The position numbers and the translations under genes were made by a program. Under the pieces are notes generated by a model, which saw only the letters and a list, made by a program, of their open reading frames with translations, ran no database searches and was not told the DNA's origin. 64,000 nucleotides of DNA from Candidatus Omnitrophota bacterium (GTDB taxonomy: Bacteria > Omnitrophota > Gorgyraeia > Zapsychrales > Fredricksoniimonadaceae): contig JADFZK010000001.1 in NCBI GenBank assembly GCA_015232565.1, forward strand, positions 13,160 to 77,159. The letters are read 5' to 3'. Positions 28,871 to 45,863 of this stretch are shown here, piece by piece (within the stretch, counting starts at the first letter, position 1; every line of letters starts with the position of its first letter).

Positions 28871-28904
28871 GGGCGGGTTAAACGAACAGAAAGGATGGCC
28901 GGGT

Positions 28905-29648: not shown

Positions 29649-29687
29649 GGAAAGAAATTCTTTGTAAAGGGATCTTTGAGGAGAGTC

Positions 29688-30671
29688 ATGGCAGATAAGA
29701 AGAAAGTACTTATTACGGGTGCTGGCGGGTTTATTGGCAGCCATTTGGTCGAACTTTGCGTTAGCCGGGGCATGAAGGTTAAAGCGTTTGTTCGTTATAA
29801 TTCCCGCAATCACTGGGGATGGCTGGAGCAAAGCCCCTGTTTAAAAGATATTGAAGTGGTGGCCGGAGATATTCGGGATTATGATTCTGTCTTTTATGCG
29901 ATGAAAGGTTGTGCTTCGGTCTTTCATCTGGCGGCTCTCATTGGCATCCCTTATTCGTATGTTTCTCCACAGGCTTATATTAAAACCAACGTTGACGGCA
30001 CTTACAATATTCTCCAGGCGGCAAAAGAGTTGGCGCTTAAGAATGTGGTAGTGACCTCGACTAGCGAGACCTACGGGACCGCGCAGTACGTTCCGATCGA
30101 TGAGAAGCATCCGGCGGTCGGGCAGTCGCCTTATTCGGCCAGCAAGATTGCGGCCGATCAGCTGGCTATCAGTTACTACCGCTCTTTCGGGTTACCGGTG
30201 CGGATCGTGCGTCCTTTTAATACGTACGGCCCAAGGCAATCGGCGCGGGCGGTGATACCGACGATCATTTCGCAGGTGCTTTCCGGCGCCCGGGAATTAA
30301 AATTGGGCAATACCGCGCCAACCAGGGATTTTACTTTTGTTAAAGATACGGCGCTGGGTTTTGTTGAAGTGTCTTTGGCCAAAAGCCTTGTAGGTGAGGC
30401 GGTAAATTTGGGAACCGGTACGGAGATTTCGGTTAATGATCTTGCGCTTAAGATCGCCGGTTTATTGGGTAAGAAGGTTAAGATAGCTTCTGAGGCCCAG
30501 CGCTTGCGCGGGGTCAAAACTGAAGTCGAACGCTTATGTTCTGATCATACCAAGGTTACGGCGCATACTGGCTGGGTACCGCGGTATGACCTTGATAAGG
30601 GCCTTAAAGAATCCATTCTTTGGATGCAGAAGAATCTGCAGTGTTATAAGGCTGATCTTTATAATGTATAG
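29688..30671 (+). CDS. NAD-dependent sugar-nucleotide epimerase/dehydratase (4,6-dehydratase-like; LegB/PseB-type candidate)
   Basis: VLITGAGGFIGSH; a catalytic triad Thr/Tyr-x3-Lys context (TSTSETYG...YSASK). GGAG ribosome-binding site before the ATG at 29688. Confidence 0.85.
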   Translation: MADKKKVLITGAGGFIGSHLVELCVSRGMKVKAFVRYNSRNHWGWLEQSPCLKDIEVVAGDIRDYDSVFYAMKGCASVFHLAALIGIPYSYVSPQAYIKTNVDGTYNILQAAKELALKNVVVTSTSETYGTAQYVPIDEKHPAVGQSPYSASKIAADQLAISYYRSFGLPVRIVRPFNTYGPRQSARAVIPTIISQVLSGARELKLGNTAPTRDFTFVKDTALGFVEVSLAKSLVGEAVNLGTGTEISVNDLALKIAGLLGKKVKIASEAQRLRGVKTEVERLCSDHTKVTAHTGWVPRYDLDKGLKESILWMQKNLQCYKADLYNV

Positions 30672-30677
30672 TTTGTT

Positions 30678-31856
30678 GTGGTTTATATGAAGCCAGGCGC
30701 GATCGACAGGTGTATTGCATTTATCAAGTCACAATATGAGGGCGAAGAGCCCGTTGCATTGCATGCTCCGCGTTTTCTGGGAAACGAGAAAAAGTATCTG
30801 TCCGATTGTATAGATTCGACTTTTGTTTCCAGTGTCGGGAAATATGTTGAGCGATTCGAAAAGCAGTGCGCTGATTATTGTGGTGCAAAATATGCGGTTG
30901 CTGTTGTTAATGGTACTGCGGCGCTGCATATGGCGCTTGTGCTGAAGGGGATCGGCCCTGGGGATGGGGTAATCACTCAGGCGCTCAGTTTTGTGGCTAC
31001 GGCAAACGCTATTCACTATACTGGCGCCAGTCCTGTTTTTGTTGATGTTGACCGTGATACCTTGAGCCTTTCTCCGGCCAAGCTGGAAGATTTTCTGAAG
31101 ACCGAATCCGTTCTTCGGGATGGAGCCAGGATTCATAAGGCCAGCGGGTTGCGTTTGCGGTCCTGTATTGTTATGCATACTTTTGGCCATCCAGGGCGTA
31201 TGCGGGAATTGCTCCGGGTTTGTGAACATTTTGGGTTGGTGCTTATTGAAGATGCGGCGGAAGGAATGGGGAGTTTTCTGGATGGCCGGCATCTAGGCAC
31301 ATTCGCTCCGATCGGGGCTTTAAGCTTTAATGGCAACAAGATTATTACGACCGGCGGCGGCGGGATGCTTCTTTTTGATGATGAGGCGCTGGCGCGTAAG
31401 GCCAGGCATTTAACGACTACCGCCAAAGTGCCGCATTCCTGGGAATATGATCATGATGCGGCAGGCTATAATTACCGGATGCCGAATTTGAACGCGGCTT
31501 TGGGCCTGGCGCAGATCGAACAGTTACCGGGTTTCCTGGCCAGTAAAAGAGCATTGGCCGCAGCGTATTCAAAGTTCTTTTATGATGAGGGTATTGCGTT
31601 CATTAGTGAGCCGGCTGGCGCCGTAGCGAATTATTGGCTGAATGCCATCGCCCTTGGCGATCGCCGGGAAAGAGATACTTTCCTGGAGAAGACTAATGCT
31701 GCGGGTGTGATGACGCGTCCGTTGTGGAAATTGCTGGATGGCCTGCCGCCGTATCAGCAGTGCCCCAGGGCCAATCTGGATAATGCCCGTTGGCTGGAAG
31801 ACCGGGTGGTGAATATTCCCAGTAGCGTAACGAGGTGGAGAGATGGAAAGACTTAA
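30678..31856 (+). CDS. DegT/DnrJ/EryC1/StrS family PLP-dependent sugar aminotransferase
   Basis: AVVNGTAALHMA and FNGNKIITTGGGGMLL, where the Lys binds PLP. Confidence 0.9.
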   Translation: MVYMKPGAIDRCIAFIKSQYEGEEPVALHAPRFLGNEKKYLSDCIDSTFVSSVGKYVERFEKQCADYCGAKYAVAVVNGTAALHMALVLKGIGPGDGVITQALSFVATANAIHYTGASPVFVDVDRDTLSLSPAKLEDFLKTESVLRDGARIHKASGLRLRSCIVMHTFGHPGRMRELLRVCEHFGLVLIEDAAEGMGSFLDGRHLGTFAPIGALSFNGNKIITTGGGGMLLFDDEALARKARHLTTTAKVPHSWEYDHDAAGYNYRMPNLNAALGLAQIEQLPGFLASKRALAAAYSKFFYDEGIAFISEPAGAVANYWLNAIALGDRRERDTFLEKTNAAGVMTRPLWKLLDGLPPYQQCPRANLDNARWLEDRVVNIPSSVTRWRDGKT

Positions 31857-32901
31857 GAAAATACTGATCCATCCTGATAGCACGATCAAGCAGGCGCTCA
31901 AGCAGATGGACGCTATGGGTGAGAAAACACTGATCACGGTCGACGCGAATAATTACATTCTGGGGACTACTACCGACGGTGATATCCGCCGCTGGGTCCT
32001 TAAGGGTAAAGGTATCAATGAAGGCCTGGCGAAGGTGATGAACTCTCAGCCCCTGACGCTGGTGGAGGGTTATAATAAAGAGACGGCCAAAAAGATCATG
32101 TTGCGCAAACAGATCGAGTGCCTGCCGGTCGTGGATAAGGTTGGCAGGGTTACCGGTTGTCTTTGGTGGATGGATCTTTTTGAGACCAAGGCGAAGATCA
32201 AGAATGACGTTAGACTGCCGGTGGTCATTATGGCTGGCGGGGAAGGTTCGCGGCTTCATCCTTTTACCAAGATCCTGCCCAAGCCGCTGATGCCGATCGG
32301 AGATAAACCCATTATTGAAGTAATTGTCGACCGGTTCTTTGAACACGGTTGCCAGGATTTTTATTTGTCCTTGAATTATAAATCAAATCTTATTAAGGCG
32401 TATTTCAGCGATTTTGAGCATTTATACAACATTAACTATATTTTGGAGAGCAAGCCGCTGGGGACAGCGGGCAGTCTGCACCTGTTGCGCGACAAGATCA
32501 AGACGACATTCTTTGTGAGTAATTGTGATATTCTTATTGAGGCGGACTACGCTGATATGTTGAAATTTCATCGTAGTAATAAGAACAAGATCACCATGGT
32601 GAGTTCCATGAAGAATTTCACCATTCCGTATGGCGTGTGTGAGATACATAACGGCGGGACGCTCAAGAGTATTCAGGAGAAGCCGGAACATGATTTTCTG
32701 GTGAACACCGGCATGTATATTCTGGAGCCGGGAGTCCTTAAGGATATTCCGGCGGACCGGTTTTATCACATTACGGACCTGATCAATGATTATTTGAAGA
32801 AGGGTGAGCAGGTAGGCGTTTACCCTGTTTCCGAGAAGGCCTGGCTGGATATTGGGCAATTCGAGGAGTTGCAGGAAACTTTGAAGAAATTTGAGGTATA
32901 G
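31843..32901 (+). CDS. Tandem-CBS-domain sugar-1-phosphate nucleotidyltransferase (PtmE-like)
   Basis: The N-terminal roughly 120 aa form a CBS pair. They are followed by VIMAGGEGSRLHPFTKILPKPLMPIGDKPII, a nucleotidyltransferase signature. Confidence 0.85.
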   Translation: MERLKKILIHPDSTIKQALKQMDAMGEKTLITVDANNYILGTTTDGDIRRWVLKGKGINEGLAKVMNSQPLTLVEGYNKETAKKIMLRKQIECLPVVDKVGRVTGCLWWMDLFETKAKIKNDVRLPVVIMAGGEGSRLHPFTKILPKPLMPIGDKPIIEVIVDRFFEHGCQDFYLSLNYKSNLIKAYFSDFEHLYNINYILESKPLGTAGSLHLLRDKIKTTFFVSNCDILIEADYADMLKFHRSNKNKITMVSSMKNFTIPYGVCEIHNGGTLKSIQEKPEHDFLVNTGMYILEPGVLKDIPADRFYHITDLINDYLKKGEQVGVYPVSEKAWLDIGQFEELQETLKKFEV

Positions 32902-32906
32902 TGCGG

Positions 32907-34049
32907 ATGGAGAGTCAAAAGGGTTGTTATCTTTGCGGGCACCGGAGGTTTCGTGTTGTGTTGGATCGTCCGGCTGTTGTGCCTTGGACAAGTTCGGGGG
33001 ATAAAGCCAGGGGACGCCGTCGGTTTCCCTGCATTCTTCGGCAGTGCCTTGATTGCGGACATGTTTACCAACCTGTTTCTTTGTCATTGCGAAGGGAATT
33101 GGCTGCAATTTATTCCTCGGACCGAGCCCAAATGTCTACGACTATGGGCAGGGGCTGTTGGGGCAAGGCGCGGTCGGATGTATTCCTGAAGGATTTTTTT
33201 AGAGTGGTGAACTTCTTGCGTTATGACTCCATTCTTGAGATAGGCTGCGGTGACGGATATCTTTTGCGGGAGTTAAAGAAGATGGGAGGGAGGGGGTTGG
33301 CTGGTTTGGAGCCCTCTTTACCTAGTGATTCTTGCCGAAATGGGATCCGGTTGATAAAAGGGTTTGCGTCTGAAGGGGTTCGGTTACCACGACGTTATGA
33401 GTTTCTATTCTCGGCGTATGTGATGGAGCATGTGGAGAATATTCGGGGTTTTATGAGGTTTTGTCTCGCTAACTTAAAGCCTGATGGAGAGATGTATTTC
33501 ATTGTGCCTAATGCACTCAAGGCGATGAAGGATGGGGATTTGTCTCTGTTTACCCATCAGCATATTCAATATTTTATGCCGTCAACGGTGCGCCGTTTGA
33601 TGGAATCGTACGGGTTTGAGGTGTTGTCATTACGTGAGATTGCTGACGATGTTGAGGTGCTAGGGCGCTGGACAGGCCGTTTGGTGGGTAAGCTTCCAAT
33701 TGCAGGTAAGTTTGGTTACGAGGCCCGGTTGCGCAAGGTAATGAAGAGGGCTTTGCGTGTTTTGCGCCGCCCCCCAGTGATTGTCCACGGTATCAGTAAT
33801 TCGTTAAATAATCTTCTGGGTTGGCAGTCTGGGAGTTTTGACATGGCGCTGGTTGACAATGATCCAACCAAGGAGGGAAAGGTCTTTTTTGGTAAGACAG
33901 CTGTTCCTACGGCGAAGATTTCATTGGCCGGTTATCGGGGAGTGTTGATTATTCCTAATACTTATGCGGCAGCGATCCGCCATGAATATGAAGTTCGCTC
34001 TTTTCAGGGGGTTATTTCGGATTTGATTTTGGAGGATCATGAAGGTTAA
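32907..34049 (+). CDS. Zinc-ribbon plus class I methyltransferase plus C-methyltransferase C-terminal domain protein (sugar C-methyltransferase family, Methyltransf_13/14-like)
   Basis: CYLCGH...CLDCGH zinc ribbon, the SAM motif ILEIGCGDGYLLREL, and a C-terminal domain of about 130 aa. A GTG at 32901 is an alternative start. Confidence 0.8.
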   Translation: MESQKGCYLCGHRRFRVVLDRPAVVPWTSSGDKARGRRRFPCILRQCLDCGHVYQPVSLSLRRELAAIYSSDRAQMSTTMGRGCWGKARSDVFLKDFFRVVNFLRYDSILEIGCGDGYLLRELKKMGGRGLAGLEPSLPSDSCRNGIRLIKGFASEGVRLPRRYEFLFSAYVMEHVENIRGFMRFCLANLKPDGEMYFIVPNALKAMKDGDLSLFTHQHIQYFMPSTVRRLMESYGFEVLSLREIADDVEVLGRWTGRLVGKLPIAGKFGYEARLRKVMKRALRVLRRPPVIVHGISNSLNNLLGWQSGSFDMALVDNDPTKEGKVFFGKTAVPTAKISLAGYRGVLIIPNTYAAAIRHEYEVRSFQGVISDLILEDHEG

Positions 34050-34749
34050 GACTGTCTTATGTCCTCGTTTTTCGGAAGTGTCCCGTAGTTTCTTCAATCG
34101 GGATTGTCAGGTTCATACAGCGTGGACTGATGGCGCCTGTGCGCCGCGTGAGATCTTGAAAGCAGCTGAGGACCTTGGCTTGGACACGTTGGCGTTTACA
34201 GAGCACATTCGTTCCGAGAGCGTTTATTTCAAGGATTTCTTTCGCGAGATTGAAGGCCTCCGTAAAGGGTTAGTAATGAAGGTTTTTATCGGAGTGGAGA
34301 CCAAGGTTATAGATGAGGAGGGACAGTTGGATATTTCTTCGGCAGATTATGCCATGGCGGAAATTGTCCTGGGGAGTGTCCATCGTATTCCGCATAATGG
34401 CGGTTTTTATCATCCTCGTGATCTCGGACTTGAGGTGACGCTTGAAGAGGAATTCCGCTATTTAATGGCCATGTTGCGTGGCGGTCGGGTTGATGTGCTG
34501 GCTCATCCGTTTGGGATGTCACTAAGAATGTTTAATGTTTTCTCGACAGATCATTTAGAAGAGGTTATTCGAACGGCGGCTTTGACTGGCGTTGCTTTTG
34601 AGTTCAATTCCAAGTATGCCAGTCCAGTATTCTTGAAGGAAGCGGTTCGTTTTTGTCGCAAACATGATCCTTTGGTGTCGCTTGGTTCGGATGTTCATAA
34701 GATTGAGGATCTTGGCCGTTGCCGTGGGATTCTGGAAGGGTTGATATGA
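34039..34749 (+). CDS. PHP-domain metal-dependent phosphoesterase
   Basis: CQVHTAWTDG...LAFTEHIRSE...GSVHRIPHNG...LAHPFG, a pattern of metal-binding His/Asp residues. Confidence 0.7.
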   Translation: MKVKTVLCPRFSEVSRSFFNRDCQVHTAWTDGACAPREILKAAEDLGLDTLAFTEHIRSESVYFKDFFREIEGLRKGLVMKVFIGVETKVIDEEGQLDISSADYAMAEIVLGSVHRIPHNGGFYHPRDLGLEVTLEEEFRYLMAMLRGGRVDVLAHPFGMSLRMFNVFSTDHLEEVIRTAALTGVAFEFNSKYASPVFLKEAVRFCRKHDPLVSLGSDVHKIEDLGRCRGILEGLI

Positions 34750-35744
34750 TAAATGTTTTGGTGACTGGGGTTGGGTCTTTGATAGGTCAGGGCCTTTTGC
34801 GTGCGTTGAAGAGTTCAGCGTTATCCTGTTGTATTACCGGTACGGATTATTTTGCCCATGCTGTTGGACTTTACTGGGTCGATCGGGGTTATATATTACC
34901 GGACTTGTTGGCGCCTGGGGTTACCGGCAGGGCATGGTTGGCCGAGATAGTTAGGATCATTGGGGAGAGGCGTATTGATGTTGTTCTTGTTGGGCTGGAT
35001 TTTGAGGTTGCGATCTTTGCGGAGAACAGACGCATTATTGAAGAGCAGACCGGGGCAAAGGTTATTGTTGCTACTTCAGAGGCTGTCGCGATTTGCAAAG
35101 ATAAATATCGCACTGCGCTGTTCTTGCAGGAGAGTGGATTCTTGTTCCCGGATTCGTGTTTGCCGCAGGATATAGAGACTTTCTTGGAGCGTCGTGCATT
35201 TCCGTTGGTGGTCAAACCACGTGCGGGGTTCCGTTCTCGGGATCTATTTGTAGTAAGAGATCGGAAGGAACTGGCTGAGGCAATGTCCCGTTGTCCAGAT
35301 CCCGTTGTTCAGGAGCAGGTTGGTGTTTGTGAGGCAGAATATACGTGCGGTACTGTTTGTCAGGGAGGAGAAAGTCTGAGTGTCATTGCGCTTCGGCGCG
35401 ACCTGAAGGATGGCAATACGATCCGCGCCGTTTTTGATGAACAGTGTTTGGGCCTTCATGAATTTGTTCGGAGGGCCGGATTGGCGCTTAGGTCTGATGG
35501 GCCGTTTAACTTTCAGCTGAGGCTTACAGAGCGTGGGCCGGTGGTTTTTGAGATTAATCCCCGTTTCTCGGGGACGACATATATGAGGACGTTCTTCGGT
35601 GTTAATGAAGTTGAGGTGTTGATCAATAAAGTCCATTTTGGCAAGGATCCGGTACCGGTGGAATGGAGTTCGGGAGTAGCGTTAAGGTATTATGATGACC
35701 AGTTTATCCCGATGGATCAATTTCGAAAGTGGTCGATGACGTGA
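34746..35744 (+). CDS. ATP-grasp domain ligase
   Basis: ATGA overlap with the PHP gene. An N-terminal Rossmann-like region is followed by an ATP-grasp core (FPLVVKPRAGFRSRDLFVV...EQVGV...EYTCG...FEINPRFSGT). Confidence 0.8.
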   Translation: MINVLVTGVGSLIGQGLLRALKSSALSCCITGTDYFAHAVGLYWVDRGYILPDLLAPGVTGRAWLAEIVRIIGERRIDVVLVGLDFEVAIFAENRRIIEEQTGAKVIVATSEAVAICKDKYRTALFLQESGFLFPDSCLPQDIETFLERRAFPLVVKPRAGFRSRDLFVVRDRKELAEAMSRCPDPVVQEQVGVCEAEYTCGTVCQGGESLSVIALRRDLKDGNTIRAVFDEQCLGLHEFVRRAGLALRSDGPFNFQLRLTERGPVVFEINPRFSGTTYMRTFFGVNEVEVLINKVHFGKDPVPVEWSSGVALRYYDDQFIPMDQFRKWSMT

Positions 35745-36610
35745 AAGTGCTAGTAACCGGAGGCAGTGGTTTTATCGGCAGTGCGGTTGTGAACCGCCTT
35801 AAGGCGGAGCATGCAGTGCATGTTCTTTCCTCTCGGCGTAAGAGTGTAGTTATGACACACGAGTGTGATCTTTTATCTGCCGCGTCGGTGAAGTCCTTTG
35901 TCGATCATCTGGCTGGTGACGGATTTGACGCGCTGATTCATTTGGCGGCCATTACTTGTTCGGCTGAGAATCGGCTAAAGATTTCTTTGCTTGATGAGAA
36001 TAACATTATTACGGCTAATGTCATTGAGATCGCACGTGCTCTGCGGCCCAAAATGTTCATTCATGCCTCAAGTATGGCGGTATTTCCGAATTGCAACGGG
36101 ATTTATACAGAGGATAGCTTGATTAACCCGGCCGCCAACGGGGATGGGCTTTACGGGTTGGCAAAGTTTAACGCAGAGGTGATGCTGGACTTCTTTCTTG
36201 CTGCGCAGATGCCGGTAACTCATTTGCGGTTGAGCCAGGTTTATGGTCCCGGAATGGTCCGGGATCGCATCATTCCGTCAATGATGCGTGAATGGCGAGA
36301 GAAAGGGGCGATTACGGTGTACGGAAACGGGGAGCGCGTGACGAATTTCATTCATGTTCGGGATGTGGTTGAAGCGTTTGTGCGAGTCTTGGCCGCTCCA
36401 AAACAAGGGGTGTTCAATATTGCAGCTAGCCGGCATTGGTCTTTCTTTGAATTGGCACAGATGATCATTGGTTCAATGGGAAGTAAAGAGATGAGGATAA
36501 TATTGGAGCCAAAAGGATCGCGAGTTCAGCAGCGGATCGATGCTACGCGTTTTAACGCAACGTATGGTTTCTCGGCGGATTGTGTTGACTTTGCGGGTAT
36601 CGAGGCATGA
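35729..36610 (+). CDS. NAD-dependent epimerase/dehydratase family protein (short form)
   Basis: VLVTGGSGFIGSAV, with Tyr-x3-Lys (YGLAK). GTG start. Confidence 0.8.
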   Translation: MVDDVKVLVTGGSGFIGSAVVNRLKAEHAVHVLSSRRKSVVMTHECDLLSAASVKSFVDHLAGDGFDALIHLAAITCSAENRLKISLLDENNIITANVIEIARALRPKMFIHASSMAVFPNCNGIYTEDSLINPAANGDGLYGLAKFNAEVMLDFFLAAQMPVTHLRLSQVYGPGMVRDRIIPSMMREWREKGAITVYGNGERVTNFIHVRDVVEAFVRVLAAPKQGVFNIAASRHWSFFELAQMIIGSMGSKEMRIILEPKGSRVQQRIDATRFNATYGFSADCVDFAGIEA

Positions 36611-38831: not shown

Positions 38832-38851
38832 GGTCGGTTGTGGGAGTGAAT

Positions 38852-39802
38852 GTGGCTTGTGAGAAGTTAAGGGTTTTAATTATTGGGCTCGGTTCTATAG
38901 GCCAGCGGCATGCGTGTTTGCTTCAGGGAAACTTTGGCCATCAGCTTTTTGCATTGCGATCCGGTAAGGGGGATATTATTGATCTTCCTGGGGTTACGAT
39001 GTTGGATTCCTGGGAGGGTGTGGATGCGGTGTCTCCACAGGTGGCTCTTGTTACGAATCCGACGGGTTTTCATTTATCGACGGCGGTCAGGTGTGCTGTG
39101 AGGGGAATGCATTTGTTCATTGAGAAGCCGATCGATTGCACCGATCGAGGGCTTGACGATCTTTTGAAGGTTGTCAGGGATAAACATCTTGTGGCCTATG
39201 TAGCGTACCCTCTTCGTTTTCATCCGTTGATACTTCTATTGCGTAAGTTGCTTGAAGGGCGGAAGGTCTTGCATGCCCAAGTGGTTTGCTCTTCGTACTT
39301 GCCGGATTGGCGTCCAGGGCGTGATTCGCACACTTTATATTCCGCCAAGAGAGTGGAAGGCGGTGGGGTTTTGCTTGATCTTTCACATGAGCTTGATTAC
39401 GCTGAATATTTGTTTGGATCGCTTAATTTGCTTAAAGGGCGGATGGGTCGGGTATCGGATGTTACGATCGACGCTGAAGATTATGCGGATTTGGTGTGTG
39501 AATATGAACGAGCGGCTGTTAATATTCATCTGAACTATTTCAGTCGGCAGGCTAAGCGTGATATTGGGATTGACCTGAAGAATGGCCACATACAAGCGGA
39601 TTTGCTTAGTGGAAATATTCGGCAGGTTATCGATGGTAAAGTGGAAGAATACATGGTTTCGTTTGGTCGGGATGATATGTTTTTGGAGCAGTTGAGACAT
39701 TTCTTTGGTGCTATTAACGGTGCTCCCTTGATCAATGATCTCGCTTCGGCGGCTAGATTATTTCGGAAGCTCTTGGCGTTCAGAGAGGAGATTCTAGTAT
39801 GA
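38852..39802 (+). CDS. Gfo/Idh/MocA family oxidoreductase
   Basis: Rossmann motif LRVLIIGLGSIGQRHA. The start is ambiguous: TTG at 38828 or one of the in-frame GTGs at 38840, 38846 or 38852. GTG 38852 is used here because GGAG (38843-38846) lies 5 nt upstream. Confidence 0.75.
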   Translation: MACEKLRVLIIGLGSIGQRHACLLQGNFGHQLFALRSGKGDIIDLPGVTMLDSWEGVDAVSPQVALVTNPTGFHLSTAVRCAVRGMHLFIEKPIDCTDRGLDDLLKVVRDKHLVAYVAYPLRFHPLILLLRKLLEGRKVLHAQVVCSSYLPDWRPGRDSHTLYSAKRVEGGGVLLDLSHELDYAEYLFGSLNLLKGRMGRVSDVTIDAEDYADLVCEYERAAVNIHLNYFSRQAKRDIGIDLKNGHIQADLLSGNIRQVIDGKVEEYMVSFGRDDMFLEQLRHFFGAINGAPLINDLASAARLFRKLLAFREEILV

Positions 39803-40509
39803 ATATTCTGATGGTGGTATGCGCTCGGGGAGGTTCCAAGGGTGTGAAGAATAAGAATATACGGCTATTGTGCGGCAAGCCGTTGATCGCGTACTCGCTG
39901 GAGCATTGTAAGGCCTGGGGTCGCGCCGCGCATATTATTGTTTCAACAGATTCATCTGAGATCGCCGAGATAGCGCTTCGGTGGGGCGCGGAAGTCCCAT
40001 TTATGCGACCACCGGAGTTGGCTACGGACACTGCACCTAAGGTTCCGGTGATTCGGCATGCGCTTCTGTCCGCGGAGGCATATTACGGCAGTCAGTTTGA
40101 TGTGGTGGTTGATATTGACGCCTCAGCTCCCTTACGCACTGTCAGGGATATTGAAGGGGCTTTTCAGGCTTTTTGTTTCGGTGAAGTTGATACAGTCTTT
40201 AGTGTTGTTCCAGCTCATCGCAATCCGTATTTTAACATGGTTGAGGAAGGTCTGGATGGCTATTGCCAACTGGTTAAGCCCTTGCCAGGGGTGATAACAT
40301 CACGCCAGATTGCGCCTAAGGTTTTTGATCTTAACGCGTCGATCTATTTTTACAAGTCGGATTATCTCAGGGATTTGGCGGTGTTATCTCCCATTTCGCG
40401 AAAATCTAAGGTTTATGTGATGGATCCAATCTGCGCGCGTGACATTGACTCGGAAGAGGATTTTAATTACGTGGAGTATCTTGTACAGCGAGGATTGGTA
40501 ACCTTATGA
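39799..40509 (+). CDS. Acylneuraminate cytidylyltransferase family (CMP-nonulosonic acid synthetase, NeuA/LegF/PseF-like)
   Basis: MVVCARGGSKGVKNKNIRLLCGKPLIAYSLEH. ATGA overlap. Confidence 0.9.
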   Translation: MNILMVVCARGGSKGVKNKNIRLLCGKPLIAYSLEHCKAWGRAAHIIVSTDSSEIAEIALRWGAEVPFMRPPELATDTAPKVPVIRHALLSAEAYYGSQFDVVVDIDASAPLRTVRDIEGAFQAFCFGEVDTVFSVVPAHRNPYFNMVEEGLDGYCQLVKPLPGVITSRQIAPKVFDLNASIYFYKSDYLRDLAVLSPISRKSKVYVMDPICARDIDSEEDFNYVEYLVQRGLVTL

Positions 40510-41288
40510 ACAAAATGCTGGATTGCTCAGGTAAAGTGGTGGTTGTTACTGGTGGCGCAGGACGTATAGGGAAGCATTTGGCTCAGGCCTTTGCTTTGGC
40601 AGGGGCTGAAGTTGTGGTAGCTGATATCGATGAGAAAGCGGCTGCGGCGGTAAGCGATTTATTGCAACAACAGGGGCACAGGGCTATGTCCCTGCTATTG
40701 GATATTGCGGATGAATCTTCGATTGTTCAGTGCATAGCCTTACTTAAAGCGCGCTTTCAGGCTATCGATGTTTGGGTGAATAATGCCTATCCACGTACTG
40801 CTGACTGGGGAGTCAAACTTGAGGATATCCCTGCGGAGTCATGGCGTAAGAATGTTGACATGCATTTGATTGGTTACTGTTTGTGCTGTCAGAAAGTTGC
40901 CGAGCATATGAAGGTTTTGGGCACGGGCAGTATTATCAATATTTCGTCAATTTATGGTATCATTGCGCCTGACTTCTCTGTATATGAAGGTACTGCGATG
41001 ACCTCGGCGGCGCCCTATGCTGCGATAAAGGGGGGCATTGTGCAGTTTACCCGTTATTTGGCATCGTATTACGGGCCGTCGGGAGTCAGGGTAAATAGCG
41101 TCTCTCCCGGTGGTGTGTTTGACAATCAGCCCGGTTCGTTCGTGAAGGCGTACATTTCTAAGACGCCGTTGCGGCGCATGGCAACAGTTGGAGATGTGGC
41201 GGGGGCGGTCCTTTTTCTGGGCTCGGAAGCTTCGGCGTATATTACCGGGCATAATCTTGTTGTGGATGGCGGGTATAGTATTCAATAA
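40506..41288 (+). CDS. SDR family oxidoreductase
   Basis: VVVVTGGAGRIGKH, NNA and a YAAIK segment (Y-x3-K). Confidence 0.85.
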   Translation: MNKMLDCSGKVVVVTGGAGRIGKHLAQAFALAGAEVVVADIDEKAAAAVSDLLQQQGHRAMSLLLDIADESSIVQCIALLKARFQAIDVWVNNAYPRTADWGVKLEDIPAESWRKNVDMHLIGYCLCCQKVAEHMKVLGTGSIINISSIYGIIAPDFSVYEGTAMTSAAPYAAIKGGIVQFTRYLASYYGPSGVRVNSVSPGGVFDNQPGSFVKAYISKTPLRRMATVGDVAGAVLFLGSEASAYITGHNLVVDGGYSIQ

Positions 41289-41372
41289 ATTTTATGTAAA
41301 GATTTTGAATGGGGCCTGTTCGTTTTAAGGTTGAAACATGGAAACTCGTTTGGCGATCTATATGGGACAAGT

Positions 41373-42137
41373 ATGAGAATTATTCCGCGCCTGGATATCA
41401 AGAACAATACGGTTGTGAAGGGCATTCATCTTGAAGGGCTGCGCGTTGTAGGCGATCCGGCGGAGTTGTCAAGGACCTATTATGCACAGGGTGCTGATGA
41501 GATCCTGTATATGGATGCCGTGGCGAGCTTATATGAACGCAACAGCCTTAAAGATATTATTCGTGTCGTAAGTGAGGATGTGTTTATTCCGTTGACTGTT
41601 GGCGGTGGTATTCGCAGTATCGACGATATCAGAGGGATCTTACGCGCCGGGGCGGACAAGGTTGCCATTAATACGGCGGCTATTCGTCGTCCCGGGTTTA
41701 TACGCGAGGCTTCGCAGATATTCGGGTCGCAGTGTATAGCGGTTTCGATAGAGGCCAAGAGAATAGGCGATGGTGTTTGGGAAGCTTATGTTGATACTGG
41801 ACGGGAGACCACAGGAATTGATGTGGTTGAGTGGGCTCAGGAAGTGGTGCGTTTGGGGGCTGGAGAGATTATTGTAACGTCCATTGACCGCGAAGGCATG
41901 AAGAATGGTTTTGAGATCGATCTAGTAGAACGGATCATGAATCTTGTTTCTGTTCCTGTGGTGGCCTGTGGCGGGTGCGGGCGGCCGGAACACGTGGAAG
42001 CACTATTGAATCGCGCTTCGGTAAGCGGTGTTGCTTGTGCGTCGATTTTTCACTATCAATTAAGTGATGTCACGGCTTTAAAGATGCATTTGGGTAAGGC
42101 AGGTATTCCGGTGAGAGCAGTCGGGAAGAATTTATGA
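41373..42137 (+). CDS. HisF-like cyclase subunit (WbuZ/PseA-partner type, glycan acetamidino formation)
   Basis: MRIIPRLDIKNNTVVKG...GGGIRS, a (beta/alpha)8 HisF pattern. It lies next to a HisH-like gene and an amidotransferase. Confidence 0.85.
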   Translation: MRIIPRLDIKNNTVVKGIHLEGLRVVGDPAELSRTYYAQGADEILYMDAVASLYERNSLKDIIRVVSEDVFIPLTVGGGIRSIDDIRGILRAGADKVAINTAAIRRPGFIREASQIFGSQCIAVSIEAKRIGDGVWEAYVDTGRETTGIDVVEWAQEVVRLGAGEIIVTSIDREGMKNGFEIDLVERIMNLVSVPVVACGGCGRPEHVEALLNRASVSGVACASIFHYQLSDVTALKMHLGKAGIPVRAVGKNL

Positions 42138-42775
42138 AAGTTGTAATTATTGATTATGGGTTATGTAATTTGCTGAGTGTTCACAACGCGCTGAGGTCGT
42201 TTGGGGTTGATTCTACCGTAACGCCTGATCCGGAGAAACTTAAAGGCGCGGATGCCCTCATTTTGCCTGGAGTGGGTGCTTTTGAGGATGGGATGAAGGG
42301 TTTAAGGGACCGTGGTTTTATAAGGCCTATTGAGGAGTACGTGGCAAGCGGCCGTCCTCTTTTAGGCATATGCCTGGGTATGCAACTTTTGTTTGATAAA
42401 AGCTTTGAGTTCGGCGAATTTGAAGGGCTGCATCTTATTCCCGGGGAGGTTGTTCCGGTAAAGCCTGCAGGCTCAACAGGAGTTCCCTGTAAGATCCCGC
42501 ATGTTGGCTGGAATGCATTGCTGAAATCTACGCGAGACTGGAGGGGTACCATTTTGGGCGATATCCCAGCGGGCGCGGAAATGTACTTCGTGCATTCGTA
42601 TCAAGGTGTCCCTGAATATAAGGAGCATGTTCTGGCAGAAACGGATTACTGTGGGAACCGATTTTGTTCTGTGGTTGCTTGTGGCAATGTGTTTGGGTGT
42701 CAGTTTCATCCTGAGAAAAGCGCCGCAGATGGCTTAACAATTCTAAGAAGTTTTCTTTCAATAAAAGGAGTGTGA
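42134..42775 (+). CDS. HisH-like class I glutamine amidotransferase subunit
   Basis: KVVIIDYGLCNLLSV, GICLGMQLL (catalytic Cys) and a terminal HPEKS motif. Confidence 0.85.
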   Translation: MKVVIIDYGLCNLLSVHNALRSFGVDSTVTPDPEKLKGADALILPGVGAFEDGMKGLRDRGFIRPIEEYVASGRPLLGICLGMQLLFDKSFEFGEFEGLHLIPGEVVPVKPAGSTGVPCKIPHVGWNALLKSTRDWRGTILGDIPAGAEMYFVHSYQGVPEYKEHVLAETDYCGNRFCSVVACGNVFGCQFHPEKSAADGLTILRSFLSIKGV

Positions 42776-42778
42776 TTT

Positions 42779-44038
42779 ATGCCTGATTTAGAGGCGCTAT
42801 TCGGACTTCCCCGGGAGGTTAAGTTTTGCAGGATTTGCAATATTACCAATCAGCGTCCGAACTCAGTTAATGAGTATGAGCATGTGCGCTCGTCGGTCAA
42901 GAGTACGATTCAGTTTAATGAAGATGGCGTTTGCGCGGGCTGTATTAACAAGGAGCGCCAGCATTTAGCGATTGACTGGAAAAAGAGAGAAGAGGAGCTG
43001 TGGGCGCTTTGTGATCATCATCGCAAGAGTGATGGCAATTATGATTGCATTGTGCCGGGAAGCGGTGGTAAAGACAGTATATATGCTTCTTGGCTTCTTA
43101 AGTATAAGTTCAAGATGCATCCATTGACGGTCACCTGGTCGCCTCATTTGTACACTGATGTAGGCTGGAGGAATTTCCAGTCGTGGATCCATAAAGGTGG
43201 ATTTGACAATTTCTTGTTCACTCCCAATGGTAAGTCGCATCGCTTGCTGACTCGTTTGGCAGTCCAGAATCTTCTTCATCCATTTCAACCATTCATTCTG
43301 GGTCAGAAAACATTTGTTACTAAGATGTGCGCGCGAATGGATATTTCTTTGGCGTTCTACGGGGAAATGCCTGGAGAGTACGGGACTACAGGCATTCTGT
43401 CCGCTAGTGGAGAGGAGAAGAAATTCTCAGGTTACGCTGGTTCAGGCTTTAGCACGGATATGCTGGGTGGCAGGGATGTGATGGATCTCTATCTTGGCGG
43501 TGTCTCGGTTAAGGATATCGTGGAGAAACACGGTGTGGCCTTGGTTGATTTGAAAGCTTATCTTCCCCTTGAAGCTCAGATCGTTCGTGAGAAAAAGATT
43601 GATATTTATTTTACGGGCTATTTTGTAAAGTGGGATCCGCAGGAATGTTATTATTTCTCGGTTGAAAAGACCGGATTTGAAGCAAATCCCGTTCGTACTG
43701 AGGGGACTTATTCCAAATACAATAGCCTTGATGACAGGATTGATGGGTATTTCTACTATACTTCTTGGATCAAATTCGGCATGGGCAGAGCCATGCAGGA
43801 TTCAGCGCAGGAGATTCGCAATAAGAAGATCACAACAGATGAAGGCAGGGCCTTGATAAAGAAGTTTGACGGGGAATTCCCGTTGCGGTATTACAAGGAA
43901 TTTCTGGAGTATATCGGGATGACGGATAAGGAATTTCGTGATATATGTGATTCGTTCCGTTCGTCTCATTTGTGGGCTAAAGTTAATGGTGAGTGGCGGT
44001 TGCGGCATACGGCCAATAATGATGGGGTTGATGATTAA
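42779..44038 (+). CDS. N-acetyl sugar amidotransferase (PP-loop ATP pyrophosphatase, WbuX/PseA-like)
   Basis: N-terminal zinc ribbon CRICN...CAGC and the PP-loop CIVPGSGGKDSIY. 419 aa. Confidence 0.85.
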   Translation: MPDLEALFGLPREVKFCRICNITNQRPNSVNEYEHVRSSVKSTIQFNEDGVCAGCINKERQHLAIDWKKREEELWALCDHHRKSDGNYDCIVPGSGGKDSIYASWLLKYKFKMHPLTVTWSPHLYTDVGWRNFQSWIHKGGFDNFLFTPNGKSHRLLTRLAVQNLLHPFQPFILGQKTFVTKMCARMDISLAFYGEMPGEYGTTGILSASGEEKKFSGYAGSGFSTDMLGGRDVMDLYLGGVSVKDIVEKHGVALVDLKAYLPLEAQIVREKKIDIYFTGYFVKWDPQECYYFSVEKTGFEANPVRTEGTYSKYNSLDDRIDGYFYYTSWIKFGMGRAMQDSAQEIRNKKITTDEGRALIKKFDGEFPLRYYKEFLEYIGMTDKEFRDICDSFRSSHLWAKVNGEWRLRHTANNDGVDD

Positions 44039-44144
44039 TAATCGGTCGGGAAGTGCTGCAGGTCATCGCGGTCTCCTGTAAGGGCGGCATCTTTGAAGAG
44101 TATTAACACTTTAAATAGAGTTTCTTAACGGGGGAGCGAAGGTA

Positions 44145-45377: not shown

Positions 45378-45382
45378 GTTTA

Positions 45383-45850: not shown

Positions 45851-45863
45851 AGTTAGGGCAGGA

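What the first reader, a model, noticed from the sequence alone, without database searches (positions are those of the whole stretch)
29688..44038. Complete nonulosonic-acid (legionaminic/pseudaminic-type) pathway with a GDP-precursor signature and an acetamidino module
Within 15 kb, in one orientation and with overlapping start and stop codons, lie: a 4,6-dehydratase-type SDR, a DegT aminotransferase, a CBS-domain nucleotidyltransferase, a NeuB-like synthase, a NeuC-like hydrolysing 2-epimerase, a NeuA-like CMP-synthetase and an SDR, then a HisF-like/HisH-like pair with a PP-loop N-acetyl-sugar amidotransferase. In Campylobacter the CBS-domain nucleotidyltransferase PtmE makes GDP-GlcNAc for legionaminic acid. 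The HisH/HisF/amidotransferase trio (WbuX/Y/Z, PseA/PtmG type) installs an acetamidino group. The locus therefore most likely makes a CMP-activated 5- or 7-acetamidino nine-carbon sugar in an uncultivated lineage where this has not been described.
Basis: partly seen in the sequence, partly recalled or inferred. Interest (0 to 1): 0.7.

Follow-up and report, generated by a model that had tools for sequence, protein, structure and literature searches.

The report
Variant legionaminic acid sugar gene cluster
An uncultivated Omnitrophota bacterium carries a 15-gene operon for a sialic-acid-like nine-carbon surface sugar of the legionaminic-acid type with an amidine group. The usual N-acetyltransferase was not found, and an uncharacterised three-enzyme cassette that recurs in many phyla sits in its usual place.

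Summary
HMM models favour the legionaminic (Leg) type over pseudaminic acid: LegC, NeuB/NnaB, hydrolysing NeuC and WbuX pass their curated cut-offs, LegB is borderline, and PseI/PseC/PseB fail. A CBS-nucleotidyltransferase, a GFO oxidoreductase and an SDR match the Campylobacter PtmE/F/A set.

Two corrections. The pathway is not "complete", because no LegH/PglD-type N-acetyltransferase exists in the 64 kb. Three of them (PHP phosphoesterase, ATP-grasp ligase, about 290-aa extended SDR) form a cassette found next to NeuB/NeuC in 18 non-redundant loci from at least eight lineages. PHP is replaced by an unrelated Metallophos phosphoesterase in 5 of them. The missed methyltransferase tracks the amidino trio (5/7 vs 0/10, p=0.003), like PtmH.

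Best reading: a CMP-activated 5-(N-methyl)acetamidino Leg-type sugar. Its 7-N-acyl group is probably installed by ATP-dependent ligation and dephosphorylation instead of by LegH. The core is a known kind; the cassette is an undescribed variant with inferred chemistry.

The parts
29676..30671 (+). legB-like NAD-dependent sugar-nucleotide 4,6-dehydratase (first ATG at 29688)
   Evidence: PF16363 2.7e-66. TIGR04180 LegB 469.2 bits, just under the 475 cut-off; next best model dTDP-glucose dehydratase 170 bits. GxxGxxG and YxxxK present.
30678..31856 (+). legC aminotransferase (4-keto to 4-amino)
   Evidence: PF01041 3.3e-84. TIGR04181 LegC family 515.3 > 420; PseC 213.6 < 423.5.
31843..32901 (+). 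ptmE-like CBS-domain sugar-1-phosphate nucleotidyltransferase
   Evidence: PF00571 CBS + PF00483 NTP_transferase. Best solved relatives are mannose-1-P guanylyltransferases. Conserved in related loci.
32901..34049 (+). 382-aa SAM methyltransferase with N-terminal CxxC...CxxC zinc ribbon; probable partner of the amidino module (PtmH-like role)
   Evidence: PF13489 1.7e-19. Remote similarity to TcaB9 and to the window's TylC3-type C-methyltransferase over residues 9-245. Co-occurs with the WbuX/HisF/HisH trio in 5/7 loci vs 0/10 without it, p=0.003.
34039..34749 (+). PHP-family metal-dependent phosphoesterase (cassette gene 1)
   Evidence: PF02811 5.7e-14. AF2 model pLDDT 95.4; nearest folds are PolX PHP domain, YcdX and histidinol-phosphate phosphatase. 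Metal-ligand motifs conserved. Replaced by Metallophos in 5 of 18 loci.
34746..35744 (+). ATP-grasp carboxylate-amine ligase (cassette gene 2)
   Evidence: NF009402 299.6 > 218. AF2 pLDDT 95; nearest folds are 2pn1, PylC, RizA, PurK, PurD, PurT and BacD. Homologues at 36-59% identity sit in NulO loci in many phyla.
35729..36610 (+). 293-aa extended SDR, epimerase/reductase type (cassette gene 3)
   Evidence: PF01370 6.2e-42. GGSGFIG and Y142xxxK146 present; the absence of a dehydratase-type acidic pair is my own reading of the sequence. Follows the ATP-grasp gene in 17/18 loci.
36607..37659 (+). legI/neuB nonulosonic acid synthase
   Evidence: PF03102 5.9e-99 + SAF. TIGR03569 462.4 > 399.65; PseI 280.8 < 340.25. 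100% identical to NCBI Omnitrophica MAG protein P0001.
37641..38831 (+). legG/neuC hydrolysing NDP-sugar 2-epimerase
   Evidence: PF02350 3.1e-78. TIGR03568 448 > 235.9; the non-hydrolysing WecB model scores only 70.
38828..39802 (+). ptmF-like GFO/IDH/MocA oxidoreductase
   Evidence: PF01408 + PF22725. Same position next to the CMP-synthetase and PtmA-like SDR in related loci.
39799..40509 (+). legF/neuA-like CMP-nonulosonate synthetase
   Evidence: PF02348 1.1e-18. Best solved relatives are CMP-Neu5Ac synthetases, E=7.9e-23. PseF model 131 < 206.
40506..41288 (+). ptmA-like classical SDR
   Evidence: NF006619 264.4 > 255; FlagModPtmA 190.7 < 350.
41331..42137 (+). HisF/WbuZ-like subunit of the amidino module
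   Evidence: TIGR00735 283.9 (< 294.6) and TIGR03572 WbuZ 275.2 (< 299.7). First catalytic Asp kept; the second is Glu (SIEAK vs canonical IDAK) in all six NulO-linked copies.
42134..42775 (+). HisH/WbuY-like glutaminase subunit
   Evidence: TIGR01855 203 > 105. GICLGMQ (Cys80) and H192-P-E194 invariant in homologues.
42779..44038 (+). WbuX/PseA/PtmG-type PP-loop N-acetyl-sugar amidotransferase
   Evidence: TIGR03573 309.3 > 203.2. PP-loop SGGKDS at 95-100 and N-terminal CxxC pairs; PP-loop invariant in homologues.

Best explanation
The 15 genes form one operon-like unit in an Omnitrophota MAG that makes a CMP-activated 5,7-diamino-3,5,7,9-tetradeoxy-nonulosonic acid of the legionaminic (Leg) type, for export on a surface glycan. 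Inferred route: PtmE-like nucleotidyltransferase (with the PtmF- and PtmA-like enzymes) supplies an NDP-GlcNAc, probably GDP-linked. LegB dehydrates it at C4/C6 and LegC aminates C4. The new amine is then acylated. The hydrolysing 2-epimerase removes the nucleotide, NeuB/LegI condenses the hexose with PEP, and LegF adds CMP. The PP-loop amidotransferase WbuX, fed ammonia by the HisH/HisF pair, converts the 5-N-acetyl group to acetamidino, and the 382-aa methyltransferase probably N-methylates it, as PtmH does. The unusual step is the acylation. No LegH is present, and a conserved cassette of phosphoesterase, ATP-grasp ligase and extended SDR occupies the position between legC and legI. I propose that the ATP-grasp enzyme ligates a carboxylic acid, plausibly a phosphorylated one such as phosphoglycerate or phosphoserine, to the 4-amino group. 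The phosphoesterase then removes the phosphate, and the SDR carries out a redox or epimerisation tailoring step. My estimates: Leg-type NulO about 0.85, acetamidino on it about 0.7, N-methylation about 0.45, ATP-grasp acylation of N7 about 0.35.
For: Shown by computation: family assignments with curated cut-offs; PP-loop and HisH triad present and invariant; overlapping reading frames. No NeuD/PglD/LegH-type gene is in the 64 kb: the only hexapeptide protein, 63341-63898, is LacA/WbbJ-like and scores 57 < 161 on the NeuD model, and tblastn with a PglD-like probe gives E >= 0.7. The ATP-grasp model (pLDDT 95) is nearest to amide-forming ligases and the PHP model (pLDDT 95.4) to phosphoesterases. 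In 18 non-redundant loci from Omnitrophota, Planctomycetales, Pelagibacteraceae, Akkermansiaceae, Sulfurimonas/Sulfuricurvum, Lachnospiraceae, other Firmicutes, Rhodospirillaceae, Elusimicrobia and marine metagenomes, the ATP-grasp gene is always directly preceded by a phosphoesterase (13 PHP, 5 unrelated Metallophos). It is followed by the SDR in 17/18 and lies next to NeuB/NeuC. Only 1 of the 18 has a PglD-like gene. The trio is embedded among NulO genes in L001, L008, L017, L086 and the JGI contig. The methyltransferase co-occurs with the trio (5/7 vs 0/10, Fisher p=0.003). [quoted passage not shown] PtmG makes the Am group (SugarBase preprint). PtmH/ORF8 N-methylates CMP-Leg5Am7Ac (PMC3766260). 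ATP-dependent ligation of a phosphorylated partner followed by a dedicated phosphatase is proven for Cj1438C/Cj1435 (PMC12409886).
Against: There are no biochemical data and no glycan structure. LegB (469 vs 475) and HisF/WbuZ fall just below their curated cut-offs, and the CMP-synthetase matches only generic models. In C. jejuni legH lies outside the leg cluster, and only 64 kb of a 141.6-kb contig of an incomplete MAG was examined, so a LegH may exist elsewhere. One cassette locus (L010, Sulfurimonas) also has a PglD-like gene, so the cassette does not strictly replace LegH. The acyl donor is a guess. The SDR's role is unassigned. PHP motif I has Gln instead of the first His in this subclade. 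I could not place NeuB on a tree with a characterised LegI reference, so Leg versus Neu rests on context (LegB/LegC/PtmE), and stereochemistry cannot be read from sequence.
Confidence: 0.6

Rival explanations
1. Canonical product: the locus makes ordinary CMP-Leg5Am7Ac or Leg5AmNMe7Ac. A LegH/PglD-type N-acetyltransferase is encoded elsewhere in the genome, or the ATP-grasp enzyme simply uses acetate or formate, and the cassette performs an unrelated accessory step such as epimerisation to an 8-epi or 4-epi form.
For: In C. jejuni 11168 legH lies outside the leg cluster. L010 has both a PglD-like gene and the cassette. PurT, a formate-using ATP-grasp enzyme, is among the structural neighbours. 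Extra SDRs next to lga genes are predicted to epimerise CMP-Leg in Acinetobacter (PMC5595891).
Against: 17 of 18 cassette loci lack any PglD-like gene within about 10 kb, and none of the six Pfam-annotated neighbourhoods has a Hexapep or GNAT domain. This reading does not explain why a phosphoesterase of either of two unrelated folds is always fused in register to the ATP-grasp gene.
Confidence: 0.25
2. The ATP-grasp enzyme amidates the C1 carboxylate of the nonulosonic acid, or another sugar acid, with a phosphorylated amine (ethanolamine-P or serinol-P), and the phosphoesterase then removes the phosphate. This is the same logic as Cj1438C/Cj1435.
For: It is a direct experimental precedent for an ATP-dependent amidoligase plus phosphatase in glycan tailoring. 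The ATP-grasp fold fits either orientation of the ligation.
Against: It leaves the 4-amino group without an acyltransferase. The cassette sits between legC and legI, upstream of CMP activation, rather than with glycosyltransferases. No gene for making serinol-P or ethanolamine-P is adjacent, although a HisC-like aminotransferase lies at 59366-60451.
Confidence: 0.1
3. The WbuX/HisH/HisF trio does not act on the nonulosonic acid but on another N-acetyl sugar made by the 45-kb glycan locus, such as a FucNAc-type or diacetamido-uronic sugar, as in WbuXYZ or WbpG systems.
For: The window encodes at least two more sugar modules (44145-48625 and 52688-63898). The WbuX family is known (my recollection, not verified here) to act on other N-acetyl sugars.
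Against: In five related loci the trio is interleaved with NulO genes. Examples: PtmE-HisF-HisH-WbuX-PtmF-LegF-PtmA in L001 and the JGI contig, NeuC-HisF-HisH-WbuX in L008, LegF-WbuX-HisF-HisH-LegB in L017. Those loci do not share the window's other modules.
Confidence: 0.1
4. The sugar is pseudaminic acid or N-acetylneuraminic acid rather than a legionaminic-type acid.
For: NCBI annotates the synthase as 'N-acetylneuraminate synthase'. TIGR03569 covers both Neu and Leg synthases, and JGI names for homologues at about 60% identity are split between the two.
Against: The PseI, PseC, PseB and PseF models all fail their cut-offs while LegC passes and LegB is borderline. A hydrolysing 2-epimerase is present, which the cited paper states has no counterpart in the Pse pathway (PMC5378307). 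To my knowledge (not verified here), Neu5Ac synthesis needs neither a 4,6-dehydratase nor a C4 aminotransferase nor PtmE.
Confidence: 0.05

Closest known systems
Campylobacter jejuni CMP-legionaminic acid pathway (LegB/C/H/G/I/F with PtmA/E/F, plus PtmG amidotransferase and PtmH methyltransferase)
   Same: The window has homologues of LegB, LegC, LegG, LegI, LegF, PtmE, PtmF, PtmA and a PtmG/PseA-family PP-loop amidotransferase, plus a methyltransferase that tracks the amidotransferase. It follows the same overall logic of a GDP-type precursor, 4,6-dehydration, C4 amination, hydrolysing 2-epimerisation, PEP condensation and CMP activation.
   Different: No LegH was found. A phosphoesterase/ATP-grasp/extended-SDR cassette occupies the legC-legI interval. 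HisH/HisF genes are contiguous with the amidotransferase. Homology of the methyltransferase to PtmH was not tested, and it looks like a remote TcaB9/TylC3-type zinc-ribbon methyltransferase.
Legionella pneumophila serogroup 1 O-antigen locus (poly-Leg5Am7Ac with N-methylation by ORF 8)
   Same: The predicted end product class is a 5-acetimidoyl, optionally N-methylated, legionaminic acid on a surface polysaccharide.
   Different: From memory, not verified here: Legionella uses a UDP-linked bacillosamine-type route. The locus paper makes no mention of hisF, hisH or an amidotransferase, and I did not search it for an ATP-grasp or PHP gene. The organism, phylum and gene order differ.
WbuX/WbuY/WbuZ-type acetamidino modules (TIGR03573, TIGR03572; AglZ/HisF2 in archaea)
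   Same: A PP-loop N-acetyl-sugar amidotransferase sits with HisH and HisF paralogues. The PP-loop and glutaminase triad are intact, and WbuX passes its curated cut-off.
   Different: The substrate here is inferred to be a nonulosonic acid. The HisF paralogue scores marginally higher on the canonical HisF model than on WbuZ (both below cut-off) and has Glu at the second catalytic Asp position.
C. jejuni HS:2 capsule amidoligase Cj1438C with phosphatase Cj1435
   Same: The proposed logic for the cassette is the same: ATP-dependent amide ligation with a phosphorylated partner, followed by a dedicated phosphatase.
   Different: No sequence relationship was tested. That phosphatase is a HAD enzyme, whereas here it is PHP or Metallophos. 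In that system the sugar provides the carboxylate and the reaction occurs on the growing polymer.
Shewanella oneidensis sfmABCDE flagellin-modification operon
   Same: It combines a PseI/NeuB-like synthase, a PtmA-like SDR, a SAM methyltransferase of about 395 aa and an ATP-grasp 'carboxylate-amine ligase' in a nonulosonic-acid modification operon (PMC3765264).
   Different: It has no phosphoesterase and no LegB/LegC/NeuC/PtmE set. Its ATP-grasp protein is 412 aa with an ATP-grasp_4 domain. Homology was not tested and the chemistry is unresolved there too.
Acinetobacter baumannii lga + aci/ela modules (acinetaminic and 8-epi-legionaminic acids)
   Same: Extra dehydrogenase genes appended to a Leg module are predicted to change the stereochemistry of CMP-Leg. 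This is a possible model for the extra SDR.
   Different: Those are classical adh_short SDRs with no ATP-grasp or phosphoesterase partner, and they are reported only in A. baumannii.

Membership tests
CMP-legionaminic acid pathway (GDP-linked route) | LegB-type NAD-dependent 4,6-dehydratase | tested here: inconclusive
   TIGR04180 scores 469.2 bits against a cut-off of 475. It is far above the next model (170 bits), so this is a near-miss rather than a failure.
CMP-legionaminic acid pathway (GDP-linked route) | LegC-type C4 aminotransferase | tested here: met
   TIGR04181 515.3 > 420; PseC 213.6 < 423.5.
CMP-legionaminic acid pathway (GDP-linked route) | LegH (NeuD/PglD-family) N-acetyltransferase | tested here: not met
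   None in the 64-kb window. The only hexapeptide protein is LacA/WbbJ-like (NeuD model 57 < 161). tblastn with a PglD-like probe gives E >= 0.7. It may be encoded elsewhere in the genome.
CMP-legionaminic acid pathway (GDP-linked route) | Hydrolysing NDP-sugar 2-epimerase (LegG/NeuC) | tested here: met
   TIGR03568 448 > 235.9.
CMP-legionaminic acid pathway (GDP-linked route) | NeuB-family synthase of the Neu/Leg type, not the Pse type | tested here: met
   TIGR03569 462.4 > 399.65; PseI 280.8 < 340.25. Separation of LegI from Neu5Ac synthases was not possible, because no characterised LegI reference was available.
CMP-legionaminic acid pathway (GDP-linked route) | CMP-nonulosonate synthetase (LegF) | tested here: inconclusive
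   PF02348 passes (68 > 22.6) and the best solved relatives are CMP-Neu5Ac synthetases. No LegF-specific model was available, and PseF scores 131 < 206.
CMP-legionaminic acid pathway (GDP-linked route) | PtmE-type GTP-specific nucleotidyltransferase giving GDP-linked precursors | not testable with these tools
   The CBS + NTP_transferase architecture and guanylyltransferase-like nearest structures are consistent, but nucleotide specificity needs an assay.
Pseudaminic acid pathway | PseB, PseC, PseI and PseF equivalogs | tested here: not met
   PseB 73.8 < 407.8, PseC 213.6 < 423.5, PseI 280.8 < 340.3, PseF 131.3 < 205.7.
WbuX/Y/Z acetamidino module | PP-loop (SGGxDS) N-acetyl-sugar amidotransferase | tested here: met
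   TIGR03573 309.3 > 203.2. SGGKDS at residues 95-100, invariant in 5 homologues.
WbuX/Y/Z acetamidino module | HisH-type glutaminase with Cys-His-Glu triad | tested here: met
   TIGR01855 203 > 105. Cys80 in GICLGMQ and His192/Glu194, all invariant.
WbuX/Y/Z acetamidino module | HisF/WbuZ paralogue | tested here: inconclusive
   TIGR03572 275.2 < 299.7 and TIGR00735 283.9 < 294.6. The Asp-to-Glu change at the D130 position is shared by all NulO-linked copies.
ATP-grasp carboxylate-amine ligases | ATP-grasp fold with conserved nucleotide and Mg motifs | tested here: met
   NF009402 299.6 > 218. pLDDT 95 model; Foldseek matches 2pn1, PylC, RizA, PurK, PurD and PurT at E <= 1e-15. Invariant K157, E269 and N271 in alignment A1. 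Substrates are untestable here.
PHP-family phosphoesterases | PHP barrel with His/Asp/Glu metal ligands | tested here: met
   PF02811 53 > 26. Model pLDDT 95.4, TM about 0.7 to YcdX, PolX-PHP and histidinol-phosphate phosphatase. Invariant H26, E55, H56, E87, H115, H156, D218 and H220. The first His of motif I is Gln in this subclade.

The most novel reading that the evidence does not exclude
The phosphoesterase/ATP-grasp/extended-SDR cassette defines a widespread, uncharacterised branch of legionaminic-type sugar biosynthesis. In it, LegH-dependent N-acetylation is replaced by ATP-dependent ligation of a phosphorylated acid (for example phosphoglycerate or phosphoserine) to the C4 amine, followed by dephosphorylation. 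This would yield a family of 7-N-acyl (glyceroyl-, aminoacyl- or similar) nonulosonic acids. It would supply the first genetic and enzymatic route to non-acetyl N-acyl decorations, whose genes are described as 'elusive' in the literature.
Probability: 0.3. Interest if true: 0.7.

Novelty: new variant of a known kind. Interest (0 to 1): 0.5.

Why it matters
Nonulosonic acids shape surface charge, phage susceptibility, motility and host interaction. [quoted passage not shown] This locus shows that Omnitrophota, ultra-small uncultivated bacteria, encode an elaborate net-neutral amidino sugar. More usefully, it exposes a three-gene cassette conserved next to NeuB in at least eight lineages, some of them culturable, that gives a directly testable candidate for ATP-dependent N-acylation of these sugars. 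If confirmed, it would improve structure prediction from genomes and add ligases for chemo-enzymatic synthesis of sialic-acid analogues.

Tried and rejected
1. An exact-sequence lookup of NeuB found nothing. The homology search then identified the NCBI MAG.
2. tRNA and Rfam scans of the window found nothing.
3. Promoter and terminator scans of 28400-45500 were not enriched over shuffles and marked no operon boundary.
4. I considered the second CTP_transf_3 gene (60441-61202) as the true CMP-NulO synthetase and rejected it, because it is a KdsB subfamily member (NF003952 238 > 193).
5. I considered the hexapeptide protein at 63341-63898 as LegH and rejected it as LacA/WbbJ-like.
6. I considered the second DegT (46698-47816) as LegC and rejected it (266 < 420).
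7. I considered the 382-aa methyltransferase as part of the ATP-grasp cassette and rejected that, because it tracks the amidino trio instead.
8. I tested whether the 247-aa papain-like gene upstream of legB is conserved in the related locus L001. There was no similarity.
9. Literature searches for ATP-grasp with legionaminic, pseudaminic or nonulosonic acids, and for Omnitrophota with these sugars, returned nothing relevant except Shewanella sfm. The Iyer et al. 2009 amidoligase survey is not held.
10. A phylogeny with characterised LegI/PseI/NeuB references could not be built, because only N. meningitidis NeuB and C. jejuni PseI are reachable through the PDB and no LegI reference was available.
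11. Relaxed Pfam searches of six large orphan ORFs gave nothing.

Full report
OBSERVATION. Window 29676-44038 contains 15 consecutive + strand ORFs. Ten of the 14 internal junctions overlap, mostly by 4 nt of the ATGA type. The only real gap is 42 nt before the HisF-like gene, and 106 nt separate the last gene from the next module. These are a GDP-mannose-dehydratase-fold SDR, a DegT aminotransferase, a CBS + NTP_transferase protein, NeuB + SAF, Epimerase_2, CTP_transf_3, an adh_short SDR, a His_biosynth protein, a class-I GATase, and a protein with no Pfam hit that matches TIGR03573 WbuX at 309 bits (cut-off 203).

SOURCE AND SETTING. NeuB, the ATP-grasp protein and the PHP protein are each 100% identical to proteins of an NCBI MAG labelled Candidatus Omnitrophica bacterium, on a contig of 141,577 bp. 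The next NeuB relative is only 63% identical. The run lies inside a surface-glycan region of about 45 kb that is almost entirely on the + strand. It includes GT2 glycosyltransferases, a Wzx-type flippase, four polytopic membrane orphans and at least two further sugar modules. No tRNA or Rfam element is present.

WHICH NONULOSONIC ACID. The curated subfamily models discriminate well. LegC passes (515 > 420). LegB is a near-miss (469 vs 475, and 300 bits above any other dehydratase model). NeuB/NnaB passes (462 > 400) and hydrolysing NeuC passes (448 > 236). PseB, PseC, PseI and PseF all fail. According to the Tannerella study, a hydrolysing 2-epimerase has no counterpart in the Pse pathway (PMC5378307). 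To my knowledge (not verified here), a 4,6-dehydratase plus C4 aminotransferase is not needed for Neu5Ac. The CBS-nucleotidyltransferase, the GFO oxidoreductase and the classical SDR (PRK09186 264 > 255; PtmA model 191 < 350) reproduce the Campylobacter PtmE/PtmF/PtmA set. [quoted passage not shown] The nearest solved relatives of the nucleotidyltransferase domain are mannose-1-phosphate guanylyltransferases. The 'GDP signature' is therefore consistent but not proven. The Leg-versus-Neu call rests on context, and stereochemistry (Leg versus an epimer) is open.

THE AMIDINO MODULE. WbuX has the PP-loop SGGKDS at residues 95-100 and two N-terminal CxxC pairs. HisH has the GICLGMQ nucleophile elbow (Cys80) and His192-Pro-Glu194. 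These motifs are invariant in the homologues from related loci. The HisF-like protein keeps the first catalytic Asp but has Glu where canonical HisF has the second ('SIEAK' vs 'IDAK'). This was verified by alignment to solved HisF proteins and is shared by all six NulO-linked copies, so these form a distinct paralogue group. Could the trio serve another sugar of this large locus? In L001, the JGI contig, L008, L017 and L086 the trio is interleaved with NulO genes in different orders, and those loci lack the window's other modules. That makes the NulO the likely substrate. According to the SugarBase preprint, PtmG generates the acetimidoyl group; the Tannerella paper states that in Campylobacter the Am modification occurs at the CMP-sugar stage.

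THE METHYLTRANSFERASE. The 382-aa protein has a zinc-ribbon N-terminus and a class-I SAM domain. It is remotely similar to TcaB9 and to the window's own TylC3-type C-methyltransferase over residues 9-245 (20% identity, E=3e-5). Across the cassette loci it is present in 5 of 7 loci that have WbuX + HisF and in 0 of 10 that lack them (Fisher p=0.003). The JGI contig, not counted there, adds a sixth case. One of the two exceptions is truncated upstream. The simplest reading is a PtmH-like role. L. pneumophila ORF 8 and C. jejuni PtmH N-methylate the 5-acetimidoyl group of CMP-Leg5Am7Ac (PMC3766260). Homology to PtmH was not tested, and a C- or O-methylation cannot be excluded.

WHAT IS MISSING AND WHAT REPLACES IT. 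The canonical pathway needs LegH to N-acetylate the C4 amine. No NeuD/PglD/LegH-type protein is in the 64 kb. The only hexapeptide protein (63341-63898) is LacA/WbbJ-like (NeuD model 57 < 161). A PglD-like probe from Sulfurimonas finds nothing by tblastn (E >= 0.7), and a hexapeptide-repeat scan of all six frames finds nothing convincing. Between legC/ptmE and legI sit the PHP protein, the ATP-grasp protein and the 293-aa SDR.

THE CASSETTE IS CONSERVED ACROSS PHYLA. I searched with the ATP-grasp protein, looked up contigs and scanned GTDB species representatives. I then scored gene content. In 18 non-redundant loci the ATP-grasp gene is always directly preceded, usually with overlapping stop and start codons, by a phosphoesterase. 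The loci come from Omnitrophota, Planctomycetales, Pelagibacteraceae, Akkermansiaceae, Sulfurimonas, Sulfuricurvum, Lachnospiraceae, other Firmicutes, Rhodospirillaceae, Elusimicrobia, Scalindua-type, a Bacteroidetes-labelled contig and marine metagenomes. The phosphoesterase is PHP in 13 loci and an unrelated Metallophos protein in 5. The ~285-aa SDR follows in 17/18. NeuB is present in every locus that is not truncated. The cassette typically lies just downstream of the dehydratase-aminotransferase pair and just upstream of NeuB/NeuC. Displacement of one phosphoesterase fold by another in the same slot argues that a phosphoester hydrolysis step is required. Only one locus (L010) has a PglD-like gene, and none of the six Pfam-annotated neighbourhoods has a Hexapep or GNAT domain. 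More distant ATP-grasp homologues (31-39% identity) are outside NulO loci but still keep amino-sugar company. In Sporomusa the operon is GFO, FemAB/GNAT-like, glycosyltransferase, LpxC-like deacetylase, DegT, WbqC, ATP-grasp. Thaumarchaeal copies keep a PHP neighbour.

WHAT THE CASSETTE PROBABLY DOES. The AF2 model of the ATP-grasp protein (pLDDT 95, pTM 0.91) is closest to an uncharacterised CPS-like protein (2pn1). After that come PylC, the L-amino-acid ligases RizA and BacD, PurK, PurD and PurT. All of these form an acyl- or carboxy-phosphate and pass it to an amine. The PHP model (pLDDT 95.4) is closest to the PolX PHP domain, YcdX and histidinol-phosphate phosphatases. Its metal ligands are invariant in a 33-sequence alignment, apart from a His-to-Gln change in motif I in this subclade. 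The SDR has GGSGFIG and YxxxK. By my own reading it lacks the acidic pair typical of 4,6-dehydratases, which would make it an epimerase or reductase. A proven precedent links an ATP-dependent amide ligase to a dedicated phosphatase in glycan tailoring: C. jejuni Cj1438C amidates glucuronate with serinol phosphate or ethanolamine phosphate, and Cj1435 then hydrolyses the phosphate ester (PMC12409886). By analogy, and given the position of the cassette and the absence of LegH, I propose three steps. The ATP-grasp enzyme ligates a phosphorylated acid to the C4 amine (future N7). The phosphoesterase removes the phosphate. The SDR does a redox or epimerisation step, for which the Acinetobacter aci/ela dehydrogenases offer a loose precedent (PMC5595891). 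These steps are inferred, not shown. I put the N7-acylation reading at about 0.35. The alternatives are acetate or formate as the acid with an otherwise canonical product, or amidation of the C1 carboxylate.

COMPARISON WITH THE KNOWN. The core (LegB/C/G/I/F, PtmE/F/A, PP-loop amidotransferase with HisH/HisF, methyltransferase) is the known Campylobacter/Legionella Leg5Am(NMe) system transplanted to Omnitrophota. That makes it a new member of a known kind. I found no paper linking Omnitrophota/Omnitrophica to these sugars. The cassette is not described in the searchable literature. Full-text searches for ATP-grasp with legionaminic, pseudaminic or nonulosonic acids return only the Shewanella sfmABCDE operon, which pairs a PseI-like synthase, a PtmA-like SDR, a 395-aa methyltransferase and an ATP-grasp protein of unknown chemistry. 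[quoted passage not shown] Overall I rate the finding a new variant of a known kind.

LIMITS. Only 64 kb of a 141.6-kb contig from an incomplete MAG was available, and in C. jejuni legH lies outside the leg cluster. Several assignments sit just below curated cut-offs (LegB, HisF/WbuZ) or rest on generic models (LegF). The locus sample is small and partly phylogenetically related, so the Fisher p-value is indicative only. There is no experimental evidence for any step.

VERDICT. The added value is a conserved, cross-phylum phosphoesterase/ATP-grasp/SDR cassette that probably diversifies the second N-acyl group. Interest 0.5.

Noticed in passing
window 44145-48625: A second sugar module lies directly downstream: a TylC3/TcaB9-type C-methyltransferase (PF08421 + PF08484), a NUDIX hydrolase (GDP-mannose mannosyl hydrolase-like), a formyltransferase, a DegT aminotransferase that fails the LegC cut-off (266 < 420) and another methyltransferase. 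It suggests an N-formylated, C-methylated amino sugar. A similar CMT + DegT pair follows the NulO genes in Sulfuricurvum L014.
   Followed up: partly
window 59366-63898: A third module: a HisC-like class I/II aminotransferase, a KdsB-subfamily CMP-Kdo-type cytidylyltransferase (NF003952 238 > 193), two GFO/IDH/MocA oxidoreductases and a LacA/WbbJ-like O-acetyltransferase. It may make a modified (amino?) octulosonic acid and is cut by the window end.
   Followed up: partly
window 15634-17928, 19579-21120, 23164-24891, 49346-51076: Four large ORFs have no Pfam match even at E<=1, but 8-12 predicted transmembrane segments each. They are candidate polymerases, ligases or membrane glycosyltransferases of the glycan locus. 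Two further orphans (54669-56744 and 56635-58575) are soluble.
   Followed up: partly
window 41331-42137 and homologues in L001, L006, L007, L008, L017: All NulO-linked HisF paralogues have Glu instead of the second catalytic Asp of canonical HisF ('IEAK' vs 'IDAK'). This is a possible signature separating amidation-associated HisF copies from histidine-biosynthesis HisF.
   Followed up: partly
window 34039-34749; L001, L007, L017: PHP motif I reads D-x-Q-x-H instead of D-x-H-x-H in the window, L001, L007 and L017, all of which also carry the amidino trio. Not every trio-bearing locus shares the change: L006 reads D-x-H-x-H. All other metal ligands are intact.
   Followed up: partly
L044 4442-11014 (Sporomusa acidovorans), also L019, L027, L046: Distant ATP-grasp homologues in Firmicutes end a conserved operon: GFO oxidoreductase, FemAB/GNAT-like protein, glycosyltransferase-like protein, LpxC-like deacetylase, DegT aminotransferase, WbqC-family protein, ATP-grasp. 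This is an apparently uncharacterised amino-sugar tailoring system in cultured bacteria.
   Followed up: partly
L065, L070, L073, L079, L080 (Nitrososphaeraceae, Nitrosopumilales and Nitrosopolaris MAGs): Thaumarchaeal loci carry two divergent ATP-grasp genes flanking a PHP gene and an orphan of about 550 aa, so the PHP/ATP-grasp pairing extends to archaea outside NulO contexts.
   Followed up: no
window 26918-29648: An HTH_24 regulator, a YhcG/DUF1016 PDDEXK nuclease and a papain-like C1 peptidase sit between the upstream MTHFR/SDR genes and legB. The related locus L001 has an ABC transporter and an unrelated 244-aa protein there, so this segment looks like a variable insertion.
   Followed up: partly
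window 1-64000: GC skew is strongly and uniformly positive (about +0.1 to +0.3) and AT skew negative across nearly the whole window. Almost all genes from 3.4 kb onward are on the + strand, so cumulative skew rises monotonically.
   Followed up: no
window 6849-10628: A 1259-aa ORF with one N-terminal hydrophobic segment and no Pfam match is followed by a small protein with a weak STI1/HOP DP-domain hit. This may be a large secreted or surface protein.
   Followed up: no
L010 7270-7839 and L012/L014 upstream of legC: Campylobacterota cassette loci use a PglF/PseB-type (Polysacc_synt_2) dehydratase instead of LegB. One of them (L010) also has a PglD-like acetyltransferase between legC and the PHP gene, the only case of LegH-like and cassette genes together.
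   Followed up: partly
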